From contig CAKKNE010000006.1 of the NCBI GenBank assembly GCA_918797485.1, forward strand, positions 2,480,001 to 2,544,000: a stretch of DNA of 64,000 nucleotides. Direction: 5' to 3'. Under the pieces are notes generated by a model. It was not told the DNA's origin and searched no databases. It saw only the letters and a list, made by a program, of their open reading frames with translations. Shown here piece by piece: positions 24,259 to 30,164 of this stretch. The position numbers were made by a program, and so were the translations under genes. Each line of letters opens with the position of its first letter. Within the stretch, counting starts at the first letter, position 1. This stretch comes from Pelagomonas calceolata (taxonomy: Eukaryota).

Positions 24259-24612
24259 GGTCGCGTCGACGGCGTCAAGCGTGGGCCTCGGTGGGCGTGT
24301 TATGGCTGGTCGCGTACGGCGTCGGGCGACTGGAGGTGCGAATTTTTGGCCGGAATCAGTGGGAGCCGGAGACACCCCAGGTCCACGTACAGCCCCGTCC
24401 GTCGGGGCAGTCCGTCTGTTTGCGGGCGCTGCGCCTGCGTCTCTCGGGCAGTGGTGGCACCGGCGCGCGTACAAGCTCGTACGAGCAGACCGACGTTTTT
24501 TGGGACCAAAAGTGAACGGACGATGTGACATTCGTGCGAAAGCTCTCAACGGCGGAAGGAGCCGGTGATGCAGTGGTGCTGAGACGCCTGGGTGCCCGCA
24601 AAAAAAGCGTGA

Positions 24613-24633
24613 GCTAGCGGCCTAAGACACTAG
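24613..24633 (-). promoter_or_regulatory. CTAG-bipartite intergenic motif, copy 6
   Basis: Minus strand CTAGTGTCTTAGGCCGCTAGC, between divergent genes. Confidence 0.7.
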
Positions 24634-24772
24634 CAAAGCAGGCAAGCTTGTGTGTGGCGCGCCAAAAACGCTGCAAACGACGACTGTGCGAACCCAGAAA
24701 CGCGTTCAGAGTACCGCACAGTTGCGTACAACCGGCCAGAAGCATCGCTGGTGACTACGGCTCCCCTAAGCA

Positions 24773-25535
24773 ATGCAGTACACACTGCTGACTTTGCTGC
24801 TCTGCAGCACAAATGGATGGCAGCTTAGTACTCGTCGCACAAATGGCTGGCAGCTTGGGACTCGTCGCGCACGCATCATTCGCTACGCAGAAGACGCAGC
24901 ATCTCTGCAGCAAGCCGCCGACGCGCTGCGCGCTGAAGCGGCATCCCTGGAGGCGACGCTGCCTCGCACAACGACGCCACCACCAGCAGTCGTAACCGAG
25001 CTGCCCGGCAGCACCTGGCGCTTCGCGTGCCGCTTGGACGAGGGGAAATCGTTCGACTTCGTCGCGACGCTCGAGCGGGAAACGAACCCCGACTATCTTG
25101 CCGACGACGCGAATCGGTATCGGGAGGCGGGGCCGCTGACGCTGGTCGAGCCCGGGCCGTCCATTAGAAAAGCTTACGGGTGGTTGGCGGACAGAGCATA
25201 AATCAAATTATCGCGGCGAAATGACTTTGTGCACCCGACTCACTGGTTGATTTGCGCACAGGCTCGCGGAGGACGACGGCCCCCCAAAGGGCGAATTCAC
25301 GAGGATCACCGTGAGCATGAGGGACGGCATGCTGGCTTCGACAGATGGTGATCTGATGTACCTGCAAGCGCGCGTGAAGCGCGGCGCCTCCGTCGCCCTC
25401 GACGAGGGCACGCTCACGGTGAAGCGGCAGCGGCCGGGGACGCGCTTTTTGTTCGTCGAGTACCCCTCGCTCGTGGCCGACCTCAAGATCGTCGGGAGCT
25501 TCTCGGCGACGCCAACATCGAAGAGTCCAGACTAA
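24773..25535 (+). CDS. Hypothetical plastid-targeted-like protein, split by an introner intron (25180 or 25183 to 25261)
   Basis: Signal peptide MQYTLLTLLLCSTNG-W. Removing GT...CACAG fuses ORF 24773 to the frame of ORF 25311 (AYGW/LAEDDGPP). Confidence 0.65.
24808..24867 (+). repeat. In-frame 30-bp tandem duplication in the presequence
   Basis: TNGWQLSTRR followed by TNGWQLGTRR. Confidence 0.9.
25183..25270 (+). mobile_element. Introner-like element A (partly decayed)
   Basis: Left TIR CAGAGCATAAATCAA (25192), right TIR TTGATTTGCGCACAG (ends 25261), degenerate flanking direct repeat GTTGGCGGA/GCTCGCGGA. Shares GTGCACCCGACTCACTG with element C. Confidence 0.8.
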
Positions 25536-25542
25536 TCAAAAA

Positions 25543-27375
25543 CTATACAAATTCCCCCCCGCGCTCCACCATCTCCAAGTTTCGTTTCCGAATGGTAGTT
25601 GTCGGGGACTCGGGCGGCTCGTCCTCCTTGTAGTCGTCATCATCAAGAAGGTTTTCTTGCAACGAGGACTGCCGCCGGACGTCCGACGAGCTCACGCGCG
25701 CGTAGGCGCCGCCCGGGTCGCCGCCCGGCTTGTGCAGCATCCGCCGCGCGCAGGCGAGCGCCGCGGCCCCGCAGAAGACGAGCATGACCGCGACAGCCAA
25801 AGGTGCGTCGAGGCTGATCGGCGGCCGCGCGTGGACGAAGATCAAGAGGGATGCTGGCGCGAGGCACAGGCAGTCCATGCGGACCTTTGGCGCGAGCATC
25901 TCCGCGACGGCCGCGAGCACCGCGACCGCGACCACGGCGTAGACGCAGAACGCGAAGTCGTCCGCAGCAGTAGTAGGCGCCCGCGGTGGCAACGCTGACC
26001 GTATGGCGGCGTGCTGCGTCACCGCGGCCAGCATCAGCGTCACGTGGTAGACCAGCCGCAGGCCCGCGTTGCCTGTGTGGAAATCAATCAGTGAACGCCA
26101 TCGAGCAGACGCAGGAATTGATTTCCACACCGGGCGTTGCTCTGCGCGTAGGAAACGATCGCAAATAAAGCGATGAACGACGGCGGCAGGAGTACGAATG
26201 CGCCTAACCTCGAAGGTGGCGCGAACTTCAGTTCTAAGGACAAACGACTGGTCTGCCTGGTCGGCGGGCAGCCGGATGAAGGATAAGACAATTGCGCCTC
26301 GCAATTTCTCGCGAAGGGCGGCCGCCGAGCCGCTTCGTCGACCACAACTTTGGCGGACAGAGTCGCATCTTTTTCGTCCACAGACGCGAAAGAACTGAGT
26401 TTGGTCGCGAAGCCGCTGTACGTCTCGAGCAGACAGAGGACTTTGGACGGCGCGCCTGCCGATAGCTCCGGTGGTAGTTCCAGCGTAATGGGCAAAGTTT
26501 GGGTTTGAAACGGATACTCGGCGATGGACGGAGAAAAGTAAAATTCCGACTGCACCCGGAGGTGGTCAAATCTATCATCCTGGACTATGGGATTTTTTGA
26601 AGGGTTTTTACCGATGTTCACAAACTGGAGCTCGGGTAAATCTTCGTTCTTGAAGAAGAGCCACTTGTCTGTTGCATCGACGTCGCACGCTCGGCCGCGG
26701 TCGGTCGGTCGCGTCGCTTCCTTGAGGGCGCTGTCGAGCTCGAGGAAGGGCCGGTAGTACTTGAGGACGTAGACGTCGACATCTCCATACCACGTCGACG
26801 ACTGCAGGTCTATTGAGGCGACATCGGAGACAAATATACCTAGGCCGTAGACCTCGACTTGGTCTACGGTGGTGGTCGTGTTCGCCGTGGTCGCCTGTGT
26901 GGAAATCAAATTTTACGGCGCGTTCGACGCGACACCTGCTCGATGGCGTGGTGCACCCGACTCACTGCTTGATTTACGCACAGGTGGTCGCCTCGTCGTC
27001 GACCTCCGGCTCCGTCACCGTCTGCACGGTCCAGCGCACGGGTTCCGATAGTGCAGTACCGTTTACGGCACAAAACACGCCTTGCGCCAGGGCGATGTCG
27101 TACCGCGCGTCGAACTGCTTGAGCTCATTTGGTAACTTCACTACACCCCTCTTCGCATCGGCCTCTGGCGCGCCGTCGCTGCAACTACGGTCCTTGCCGT
27201 TCTGGTAGACGCAGATAGCAGCTGACGGCTGGTCCTCACAAGCGCTGACGGCTTCGTCGAAGTCGACAAAAACAGAATCGGTGCCCACTTCCACGAGGTC
27301 GTGGTTGCGGCCGGGGCCGTAGTCGAGGACTTGTAATGCGCTCGCGGTTGCGAGTGCTATGGCGAGGCGTCGCAT
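25543..27375 (-). CDS. Cys-less (GLIC/ELIC-like) pentameric ligand-gated ion channel; three exons, introns 26991-26895 and 26140-26073
   Basis: Splicing joins three ORFs in frame (VDDE|ATTANT and YAQS|NAGLRL). Signal peptide; extracellular motifs GIFVSDVASID, PELQFVN, YPFQTQTLPITLE; M1 LLPPSFI; M2-M3 loop RSALPPRAPTTAAD. Confidence 0.75.
26065..26140 (-). mobile_element. Introner-like element B
   Basis: TIRs CTGTGTGGAAATCAA (26073) and TTGATTTCCACACCG (ends 26132), 14/15 match. 8-bp TSD CGCGTTGC/GGCGTTGC. Forms a 68-nt GC-AG intron. Confidence 0.9.
26887..26991 (-). mobile_element. Introner-like element C
   Basis: TIRs CTGTGTGGAAATCAA (26895) and TTGATTTACGCACAG (ends 26983). Perfect 8-bp TSD GTGGTCGC at 26887-26894 and 26984-26991. 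Forms a 97-nt GC-AG intron. Confidence 0.93.
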
Positions 27376-27635
27376 CGTTGGCGTACGCTTTGGCAGCCTC
27401 CGGTGCAGGGAGCTAATGTAGAGCGCAGTGCGTCGCTTCGAGGACTTGGCAACCGTTCGACACGTGCGCAAGCGTATTATTCACGGCGTGTCGTTGTTCT
27501 AACGATGCGTAACCACGAGCACGGCTCGATTTACGGCTCGGTTTGGCAAAGTTCCTACTCTAGGTAGCCCCTCTAGCCTACGGACGCCATCGCCGCGATC
27601 CTTCTACAATATCCTATATTTAAAAGCAGGACGGC

Positions 27636-28205
27636 TCACGCCCCGTCCGACACGTTCAGCGTCTCCAGCGAGAGCGCTTCCCTAATGCACCGGTCGCTGT
27701 CGTCCGGCGCGAATATTAAATTGCCCATGTCCAGCTCGACCTGGTAGGGGGCGTAGAAGCCCGGCGGGAAGCCCTCCTCGGTGTACCATAGAGCTACCAC
27801 GGTACCAGGCTCCCAGTGGTCCGCGCCGACGCAGCACTCGACGCGACTGCCCACCTCAAACCGCAACTCATCATTTGGTGGCGGCGGCCAAGGTGCATCC
27901 TCTCCAGCCATCCACGCCGTCAGCACCTCGTGTGGTGGAAACAAGTGATCTAAAATTTCCTCGGTGACGTCCTGCGCCTCGTAGGGCAAGGCGACCATCC
28001 TCGACTGGTCCTCGAACAACAGATCGATGACCGTGTCGACGGGGGCGCAGGTCGGGTCGCCGCACAAGACCTCCTTGCAGGAGATTTTCGGGGCCTTGCC
28101 CGTCTGAGGCATCCGTTTCGCGACCCAGGTCCGCACCTTCTCCAGGTGGCGCTTCGTGTGGCTCTTGCCGTCTACGATTTTGCTGGGGTCGAAGAGGTGG
28201 GGCAT
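27636..28205 (-). CDS. Two-domain hypothetical protein (CxDPxCxP module + SH3-like LRFxVGxRVEC...PYQV module)
   Basis: KEVLCGDPTCAPVDTVI and LRFEVGSRVECCVG...WEPGTVV...PYQVELDMGNLIFAPDDSDRCIR. Confidence 0.65.
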   Translation of the reverse strand: MPHLFDPSKIVDGKSHTKRHLEKVRTWVAKRMPQTGKAPKISCKEVLCGDPTCAPVDTVIDLLFEDQSRMVALPYEAQDVTEEILDHLFPPHEVLTAWMAGEDAPWPPPPNDELRFEVGSRVECCVGADHWEPGTVVALWYTEEGFPPGFYAPYQVELDMGNLIFAPDDSDRCIREALSLETLNVSDGA

Positions 28206-28754
28206 CTTTGCTTTCTTTCGCCTGAGGTCGTGTCAGAGTGTTAACGGCGGCTTCGTGGTCGTGAGGTTAGTGTTGAAAAACACTGTGCTTCTCGCGCTCT
28301 CGCGCTGGTTCCTTGTTGTTGCGCCCTTTCCCGGGGCTTGTGCGGCACGCAAGCCGCGGTTTGTCGCCCTGGTTGGTTAATTAAGTGCTAGGCGCACTGA
28401 GCAGGCTCGACGCCCTCAGCGGGGCTCTGGCGGCGCTTCGGCGCACGCGCCACGGGAACGTATTGTTAGAGCTGGGAAGCACCGCAGCGCTCCTCCTCCC
28501 CCGCCCGCAGGCGTCCTACCGCGGCACCGGCAAAACGTAAAAGTACTGTATGGTACCGTATACCTACCCGTATGATGGTGCGTATTTTTCTCAGGCATAG
28601 CCTGCCTTGCCCGAAGCGCGGGGCCCTTTAGTATACGGACGACGCGTGCATAAATACCTCGAGCAAACGACGCGACGCATCGACGCCATCGACGCGACGA
28701 ACGACAGAGTCAACGAAAAGACTATTTAAACGGGAGGGAGGCACAATGCGTCGT

Positions 28755-30164
28755 CTACGCCGCGACCTTGGCCGGCGCCTCAACCTCGACCTCGACGCCC
28801 GAGAGCTTCTCGTAGAACTCGCGGATCTTGAGGGACGCGAGCGTCTGGAAGAAGCCTGCGCGGAACGAGGGCGTCGCGATACGGCCGCGGTCTCTCTCGC
28901 GAGACGCGTCGACGACGTCGAGGCGGCGCGGCATCGCGTCGACGTCTTCATGAAGACCGCGTCGACTCGAAGCTCGTTTCCCACGCCGCGCCCGTGCCCG
29001 TGCCGTTGTCCGAGCCCGGCGAGTCGCCCATCTTGATCATCTGCTGCGTGAGCTCGCCGTAGAACTTCGTCGCCGTGTTCGAGAGGTGGGACTCGACGTA
29101 GATCTGTGTGGAAATCAACATGTGAGTCGCGGCGACGGCGTGCGGTCGTGGCGTCGCGGAAATGAAGGACTCTGGTAAAGCACGAGTTCCTGCAAATTGT
29201 CGAACTTGCCGTCCATCTCGAGCACGGTCACGTCGTTGCCCAGGAACTCGTCGGGGCCGTAGGCGAACTTGATGCCCGGGTAGGAGCAGGTCAGCTTCTT
29301 GCCGCACGGCGTCCACTCGATCGTCGAGCCCTCATCAAACAAGTAGGCGGGGTCGAAGTTCGCCTTGCCCTCCTTCTGGATGAACTTGACCTTGAGGACC
29401 TTGCCCTCCTTCTCGTCGGGGATCAAGTCCGTGGGCAGGACCTGAATCACGACGTCGGCGTCGCCGCGCTGCGGCGCGACGAACGCGTCGAAGTCGGGCT
29501 TGCGCGCCTCGATGGACTGCTGGATCGACTCGAGCGAGTGGCCGCGCTCGACCATGTCGCGCTGGATCTTCCAGGCGAACTTGACGTCATCGGTAATATC
29601 GAGGTAGAGCGAGAAGTCGAGCAGTTCGCGCACGCGCGGGTCCGCCATCGGGTGGAGGCCCTCCACAATCACAATTTGGGTGGGGGTGATCTCCTCGGGC
29701 GTGTCGAGCGTACCGTTCACGTGGTTGTAGATGGGCTTCTTGATGGCGTTGCCCGCCTTGAGCTCCTTGAGCTGCTCGTACATGAGGTCGAAGTTGTTCT
29801 CCGCCAGGTCCAGAGCCGTGCGGCCCGTGACCTTGCGGCCTCCTCTGTCGTTGAGGTGGTAGTCATCCAAGCAGATGACCGTCGTCGTGTCGCTCACGAG
29901 CGTGTTCGTCTCCCAGCCGCCGTTGTCGAAGCCGCCGCCGAGCGGGCCGACGTTCGTGCCGCCGAAGATACCGGTTAATCGGCGCATGAAGGTCGACTTG
30001 CCGCAGCCGGAGTCGGCCGCGACGCCGATGAGGACGACGCCGCCGTCCGCCGCCATGGTCATCTCGGACCGGGCGTTGGCGCGCACATTCGTGGATTTGA
30101 GGGCCGTGCGCGTCGGCACGAGGGCCTGGGCCGCGAGGGCGAGGGCGAGGATGATCTTCGCCAT
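28755..30164 (-). CDS. PRK: Phosphoribulokinase, plastid-targeted; introns 29183-29104 (GT-AG) and about 28997-28856 (GC-AG)
   Basis: IGVAADSGCGKSTFMRR, VICLDDYH, KPIYNHVNG, KIQRDM. Spliced C-terminus LQEL|IYVESHLSN...GSDNGTG|FFQTLASLKIREFYEK. Bipartite leader MAKIILALALAAQA-LVP. Confidence 0.96.
29104..29183 (-). mobile_element. Introner-derived intron D (one TIR retained)
   Basis: The 3' end CGACTCACATGTTGATTTCCACACAG matches the family end; the 5' TIR and TSD are not recognisable. Confidence 0.75.

What the first reader, a model, noticed from the sequence alone, without database searches (positions are those of the whole stretch)
25183..29183. Family of introner-like mini-transposons with 15-bp TIRs and 8-bp TSDs that splice out exactly
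Seen: four related 60-100 bp inserts within 4 kb (25192-25261, 26073-26132, 26895-26983, 29104-29183), each interrupting a reading frame. They carry TIRs CTGTGYGNAAATCAA...TTGATTTNCRCACAG. Element C has a perfect 8-bp TSD (GTGGTCGC) and element B a 7/8 match. In both, the intron begins at the first base of the upstream TSD copy (a co-opted GC donor) and ends at the TIR's terminal CAG, so splicing removes the element plus one TSD and restores the pre-insertion sequence. Known: introners are described in the pelagophyte Aureococcus (about 4-bp TSDs, as I recall), and 8-bp TSDs are typical of hAT-superfamily transposases. Inference: a distinct non-autonomous intron-generating family, possibly hAT-mobilised.
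Basis: partly seen in the sequence, partly recalled or inferred. Interest (0 to 1): 0.88.

Follow-up and report, generated by a model that had tools for sequence, protein, structure and literature searches.

The report
Known hAT-type introners of Pelagomonas
Four short introns in three genes of the marine alga Pelagomonas are cut out of the RNA exactly and carry the ends of a small jumping element; three are likely shrunken copies of an intron-making transposon already catalogued in this species, so the finding is real but ordinary.

Summary
Real, but already known. The window is Pelagomonas calceolata (PRK exon 100% identical). RNA reads splice all four inserts. A, B and C lose the element plus one target duplication (9, 8 and 8 nt). 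D has one TIR, no duplication, and looks like an older intron with an element end.

In 97 metagenomic copies with both TIRs, the duplication peaks only at 8 bp (48 of 97 match 7/8 or better; shuffles at most 4). All 62 copies with a recognisable duplication have a GT/GC donor in it. The commonest length is 203 bp, so the window's 60-89-bp copies are likely deletion derivatives. The same TIRs occur in an Aureococcus-like host. Protein read-throughs suggest empty sites at B and C in relatives.

Gozashti 2025 already lists P. calceolata 'fam2': 340 introners, 202-bp TIR element, hAT, 'co-opt 5' carry 3'' (its sequence not seen). Guerin 2022 reports 956 such elements. No transposase was found.

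The parts
25183..25261 (+). Intron A (GT-AG, 79 nt): 9-nt upstream duplication copy plus 70-bp element
   Evidence: 23 and 14 spliced reads, contigs of two more runs; frame restored to a 227-aa ORF
25192..25261 (+). Element A, CAG-start subtype, TIRs 11/15; flanks 25183-25191 and 25262-25270 match 7/9
   Evidence: interior hits 25 metagenomic copies
26073..26140 (-). Intron B (GC-AG, 68 nt): 8-nt duplication copy plus 60-bp element
   Evidence: 55 and 37 spliced reads
26073..26132 (-). Element B, TIRs 14/15; flanks 26065-26072 and 26133-26140 match 7/8
   Evidence: interior hits 28 metagenomic copies, including 203-bp ones
26895..26991 (-). Intron C (GC-AG, 97 nt): 8-nt duplication copy plus 89-bp element, inserted in the opposite orientation to A, B and D relative to its transcript
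   Evidence: 15 and 12 spliced reads; orientation
26895..26983 (+). Element C, TIRs 13/15; perfect 8-bp duplication 26887-26894 and 26984-26991
   Evidence: interior hits 48 metagenomic copies
29104..29183 (-). Intron D in phosphoribulokinase (GT-AG, 80 nt): only the last 24 nt or so match the element end; no second TIR, no duplication
   Evidence: 3774 and 2637 spliced reads; same-position introns in relatives
24773..25535 (+). Host gene of A, 227 aa after splicing, no Pfam family in its first exon
25543..27375 (-). Host gene of B and C, likely a membrane protein; homologues at 54-98% identity
28755..30164 (-). Phosphoribulokinase, host gene of D

Best explanation
A, B and C are spliceosomal introns made of a short inverted-repeat element plus one copy of its target duplication, and are likely old, internally deleted copies of the roughly 203-bp non-autonomous hAT-type introner of Pelagomonas calceolata. 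Inferred: a transposase acting in trans inserted the element with an 8-bp staggered cut. Shown: the element's end supplies the AG acceptor, the first two bases of the upstream duplication copy (GT or GC) are the donor, and splicing removes element plus one copy, restoring the reading frame. Inferred: exonic insertions persist only where the target offers that donor, in either orientation if both ends read CT...AG. Afterwards the interior shrinks by deletion and the TIRs and duplication decay. D is likely an older intron that carries only one element end.
For: Junction reads at all four sites; inserts present in DNA. Duplication peak only at 8 bp: 26 of 97 perfect, 48 of 97 at 7/8 or better, shuffles mean 0.8 and maximum 4. 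62 of 62 copies with 6/8 or better have a GT/GC donor in one orientation, chance 0.31 each. Reverse-only donors occur in 14 of 40 copies whose left end starts CT and 0 of 22 others, p=0.001. 10 of 97 copies are exactly 203 bp, and the interiors of A, B, C align to parts of them. Homologous proteins on long contigs run straight across B and C. Published: fam2, 340 copies, 202 bp, hAT, co-opt 5' carry 3', gt 281 and gc 42; 956 putative elements with GT/GC donors and TIRs.
Against: No transposase in 45 ORFs beside unpaired ends, 54 ORFs of 11 loci or 56 window ORFs. The published gene table, cut early in contig 6, has no PF05699 entry and one Tc1-like DDE gene. 35 of 97 copies match 5/8 or worse. 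A fits 9 bp (2 of 97 others do too). The commonest end, CTGTG (55 of 97 left ends), does not fit the hAT YARNG motif. fam2's sequence was not seen, so identity rests on species, length, TIR length, mechanism and donor use. Empty sites are read from proteins, not DNA.
Confidence: 0.88

Rival explanations
1. Same introner mechanism, but a separate family from the published P. calceolata fam2, for example one of the other ten listed families or an uncatalogued one.
For: fam1 (83 copies, TIR DNA, gt 68 and gc 15), fam3, fam39, fam24 and fam5 also have 122-203-bp TIR models. At least three different interiors share these TIRs, so the group probably spans several catalogued families.
Against: fam2 matches on length, TIR length, mechanism and a 7-position offset between splice site and element start. 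Summed contig depth on the TIR is about a thousand times single-copy depth in both DNA runs (a rough figure, not a copy number), so this is unlikely to be a missed minor family.
Confidence: 0.2
2. The mobiliser is another cut-and-paste superfamily with 8-9-bp duplications (P, Mutator or Merlin type; recalled), not hAT.
For: No hAT transposase found. A and 2 of 97 copies fit 9 bp. The introner catalogue also lists a P-type family with 8-bp duplication in switchgrass.
Against: 8-bp duplication and 10-25-bp TIRs define hAT. 20 of 97 left ends are CAGTG, which fits YARNG. fam2 has a RepBase hit to hATv-2N1_EHux and is classed hAT.
Confidence: 0.2
3. Ancient introns that later picked up repeat ends by gene conversion or insertion inside the intron, not introns created by the element.
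For: Fits D: four relatives' proteins read into an intron at the same position. Three resemble D's 5' part but end differently, and one has a different interior with an element-like end. D's interior hits only 2 copies, weakly.
Against: Does not fit A-C: locus-specific duplications at the exact splice positions, and apparent empty sites at B and C in relatives.
Confidence: 0.06

Closest known systems
Pelagomonas calceolata introner fam2 (Gozashti et al. 2025, PMC12130899, supplementary file sd07; rows seen)
   Same: Same species; TIR DNA, hAT; model 202 bp with 13-bp TIR; co-opt 5' carry 3'; GT and GC donors, AG acceptor; 340 copies.
   Different: Its row gives no duplication length and I saw no sequence. 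The window's copies are 60-89 bp and may be too decayed to be among the 340.
P. calceolata putative introner elements (Guerin et al. 2022, PMC9481584; passages and Supplementary Note 3 seen, figure S3 not readable)
   Same: 956 putative elements, GT/GC donors, AG acceptor, conserved TIRs, intron length peak near 210 bp (203 + 8 = 211 here).
   Different: The text I saw gives no duplication length, orientation rule or short derivatives.
Aureococcus anophagefferens introners (Huff, Zilberman and Roy 2016; not held; seen only through citing passages)
   Same: One splice site carried, the other taken from the duplication, either orientation; about 210-bp introns. 203-bp copies with these TIRs lie in a contig whose nitrate reductase is 88% identical to A. 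anophagefferens.
   Different: That Huff et al. give 8 bp for A. anophagefferens is my recall; I saw 8 bp stated for an Aureococcus sp. family that carries both splice sites and '3-8 nt' citing Huff. TIR sequences could not be compared.
Polarella glacialis ILE classes 6, 8, 10 (bioRxiv 10.1101/2020.10.14.339549; passages seen)
   Same: 8-nt duplication supplying the donor, introns in either orientation.
   Different: Dinoflagellate host, GA donors allowed; sequence relation not tested.

Membership tests
Introner (MITE type) | Multi-copy family forming whole introns at unrelated sites | tested here: met
   125 metagenomic matches from 5 of 64 parts scanned, 97 distinct two-TIR sites; unrelated host genes
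Introner (MITE type) | Spliced out at element-defined boundaries | tested here: met
   4 of 4 junctions in RNA; A, B, C remove element plus one duplication copy
Introner (MITE type) | TIRs and locus-specific target duplication | tested here: met
   Met for A, B, C and the family; not met for D
Introner (MITE type) | Empty orthologous sites | tested here: inconclusive
   Proteins on 51-365-kb contigs are contiguous across B and C, and the caller on the 365-kb contig appears not to splice; DNA not seen; A not tested
hAT superfamily | 8-bp target duplication | tested here: met
   definition
hAT superfamily | Short TIRs of 10-25 bp | tested here: met
   15 bp; definition
hAT superfamily | YARNG terminal motif | tested here: inconclusive
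   20 of 97 left ends CAGTG fit, 55 of 97 CTGTG do not; right ends were fixed by my search pattern; motif
hAT superfamily | Cognate hAT transposase in an element with the same ends | tested here: inconclusive
   None in the ORFs scanned or the cut gene table; no whole genome held; contigs are short
P. calceolata fam2 (Gozashti 2025) | Species, 202-bp TIR element, co-opt 5' carry 3', GT/GC donors | tested here: met
P. calceolata fam2 (Gozashti 2025) | Sequence match to the fam2 consensus | not testable with these tools
   No TIR letters found in 12 of 14 supplement files searched; files 13 and 14 not searched

The most novel reading that the evidence does not exclude
One TIR family spans Pelagomonas and Aureococcus-like hosts with at least three different interiors all held at exactly 203 bp (a 211-nt intron, possibly nucleosome-repeat sized). 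A single A-to-T change at TIR position 2 turned a hAT-type CAGTG end into a splice acceptor and sets which orientations can become introns. Copies then shrink to 45-100-nt ordinary-looking introns and are present or absent among wild Pelagomonas lineages, so the full life cycle of an intron could be followed in ocean populations.
Probability: 0.3. Interest if true: 0.35.

Novelty: already known. Interest (0 to 1): 0.12.

Why it matters
Introners are a main route of mass intron gain, and this is a clean, RNA-confirmed example. The species, the mechanism and the hAT label are already in print.

Tried and rejected
No whole genome is held, so no genome-wide count or transposase search. Two pattern scans of viral contigs found 0 matches. 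4-bp duplication rejected: 5 of 97 at 3/4 or better against 4.8 in shuffles. One long TIR pair in L008 (1627 bp) spans the rest of a DEAD-box helicase gene and joins two separate short elements, so it is not an autonomous element. Some of the 26 unpaired ends are chance matches in bacterial or phage DNA (L027, L029, L006). RNA folding: only intron B folds better than shuffles (z -4.3; A 1.1, C -0.7, D -0.3), so a hairpin is not needed to explain splicing. Intron retention could not be measured because reads from other copies pile onto the elements. Full-length copies keep better duplications (13 of 15 against 35 of 80, p=0.004), but 7 of the 15 are from another host; without them it is 6 of 8, so this is weak support for age. 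Searching the published gene table for PRK returned only a uridine kinase. Metatranscriptome contigs were too fragmented to add anything on A-C. Searches gave background only; one search also named the 2025 catalogue.

Full report
Organism. The first exon of the phosphoribulokinase (PRK) gene next to the finding is 100% identical over its whole length to a protein named Pelagomonas calceolata. No whole genome is held.

Observation. The TIR motif occurs 6 times in 64 kb with up to 2 mismatches, all inside the finding, against 0.69 expected. A refined scan adds A's left end and only four weak 3-mismatch hits elsewhere. C has 13/15 TIRs and a perfect 8-bp duplication. B has 14/15 and 7/8. A has 11/15 and fits 9 bp (7/9). 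D has one TIR and no duplication.

Splicing. Raw poly(A) reads (two runs, one sample, about 6% of each read) join across all four inserts on the expected strands: A 23 and 14 reads, B 55 and 37, C 15 and 12, D 3774 and 2637. Contigs of two further RNA-type runs show the same joins. Skipped lengths are 79, 68, 97 and 80 nt, that is element plus 9, 8, 8 and 0. Donors are GT, GC, GC, GT and all acceptors are the TIR's terminal AG. Each splice restores an open frame. Two DNA-type runs keep all four inserts, and none of the 15 joints shown skips them; 55 joints were not shown and these runs may be the window's source.

The family. A scan of metagenome contigs with the 22-letter acceptor-side end gave 125 matches from 5 of 64 parts, about 1800 estimated. 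97 distinct sites had a left TIR with up to 3 mismatches within 700 bp and full flanks; 28 were dropped. Flank identity peaks only at 8 bp: 26 of 97 perfect and 48 of 97 at 7/8 or better, against a shuffled mean of 0.8 and maximum of 4. 35 of 97 match 5/8 or worse. Two copies fit 9 bp, like A. Four bp shows nothing.

Splice-site rule. All 62 copies with 6/8 or better have GT or GC at the start of the duplication in one orientation (48 forward, 29 reverse, 15 of them both), where chance is 0.31 per site. Reverse-only use needs the left end to read AG backwards: it occurs in 14 of 40 copies starting CT and 0 of 22 starting CA, CC or CG (p=0.001). The right end was fixed by my pattern, so only the left end is tested. 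C is a reverse insertion; A and B are forward.

Size. Lengths run from 46 to 300 bp, with 10 of 97 at exactly 203 bp, in at least three interior types. Element plus 8 gives 211 nt, matching the published intron peak near 210 bp. The interiors of A, B and C hit 25, 28 and 48 of these copies and align as end pieces of the long forms. Reads from elsewhere in the same organism carry about 30 extra letters at a point inside C. The window's copies are therefore likely deletion derivatives. One interior type lies in a contig whose nitrate reductase has A. anophagefferens as best named hit at 88%.

Empty sites. P0140 (97% identical to the B/C gene's middle exon) lies on a 365-kb contig and runs straight across both junctions. 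P0012, a PRK on a contig of the same length, reads into both PRK introns, so that gene caller appears not to splice. P0157, P0159 and P0160, on contigs up to 51, 147 and 67 kb, are also contiguous. This suggests empty sites at B and C, but I did not see the DNA. Site A was not tested.

D is different. P0004, P0155 and P0156 read into an intron at D's position whose start resembles D's interior but whose end is not TIR-like. P0012 has a 57-nt intron there with an element-like end. P0144, P0145 and P0147 are contiguous at D while reading into the next intron, which means an empty site or partly spliced RNA. D is best read as an older, variable intron with one element end.

Mobiliser. 8-bp duplications and 10-25-bp TIRs define hAT (PMC3942097, passages), with YARNG ends (PMC3014272, passages). 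20 of 97 left ends are CAGTG and fit; 55 are CTGTG, one base off, the base that makes the acceptor. No transposase was found in 45, 54 and 56 ORFs. The published gene table, cut early in contig 6, lists only a Tc1-like DDE gene. hAT mobilisation is inferred, not shown.

What is in print. Guerin 2022 (PMC9481584 and its preprint; passages and supplementary notes; figure pages unreadable) reports 956 putative introners with GT/GC donors, AG acceptors and TIRs. Gozashti 2025 (PMC12130899; passages and supplement rows) lists 11 P. calceolata families, of which fam2 has 340 copies, a 202-bp model with 13-bp TIR, a RepBase hit to hATv-2N1_EHux, class hAT and mechanism co-opt 5' carry 3'. Gozashti 2022 (PMC9860276; passages and supplement rows) gives an 8-bp duplication for an Aureococcus sp. 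family and roughly 200-bp TIR/TSD families in Aureococcus. A bioRxiv preprint on dinoflagellates describes 8-nt, either-orientation classes as similar to A. anophagefferens (passages). Huff 2016 is not held; its details are second-hand or recalled. The TIR letters were not found in the supplements searched, and ten paper searches (listings seen) showed no paper devoted to the deletion series. Unread figures and files may hold both.

Verdict. Interest 0.12.

Noticed in passing
window 28856-28997 (-): A fifth intron, in PRK (GC-AG, 142 nt; 2722 and 1914 spliced reads), without these TIRs but repetitive in DNA runs. The public annotation P0002 keeps 17 extra residues here, which the reads do not support as the main form.
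   Followed up: partly
window 25183-29183: All clear family copies of the 64-kb window sit within 4 kb, yet have different interiors, so they are not simple local copies of each other.
   Followed up: no
L007, L095, L118, L105, L009, L023, L063, L075, L094, L099: Three different interiors share the same TIRs and exactly 203 bp, suggesting a length constraint.
   Followed up: partly
window 25183-25191 and 25262-25270: The two differences between A's duplication copies fall in one leucine codon and are synonymous.
   Followed up: yes
window 24600-24722: Another repeat upstream of gene A (high DNA depth near 24622-24664) and a short inverted repeat with the same 6-letter ends at about 24685-24721.
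   Followed up: no
window 28684-28698: An interior motif of the 203-bp elements occurs alone in the PRK 3' region, near where many transcripts end.
   Followed up: no
window 26142-26894 (-): The B/C host protein has a YPFQ stretch and hydrophobic C-terminal segments recalling Cys-loop channel proteins (recalled; no Pfam hit for this exon at 1e-3).
   Followed up: no
P0011: A PRK at 87% identity leaves the frame a few codons upstream of D's position, possibly another lineage-specific intron.
   Followed up: no
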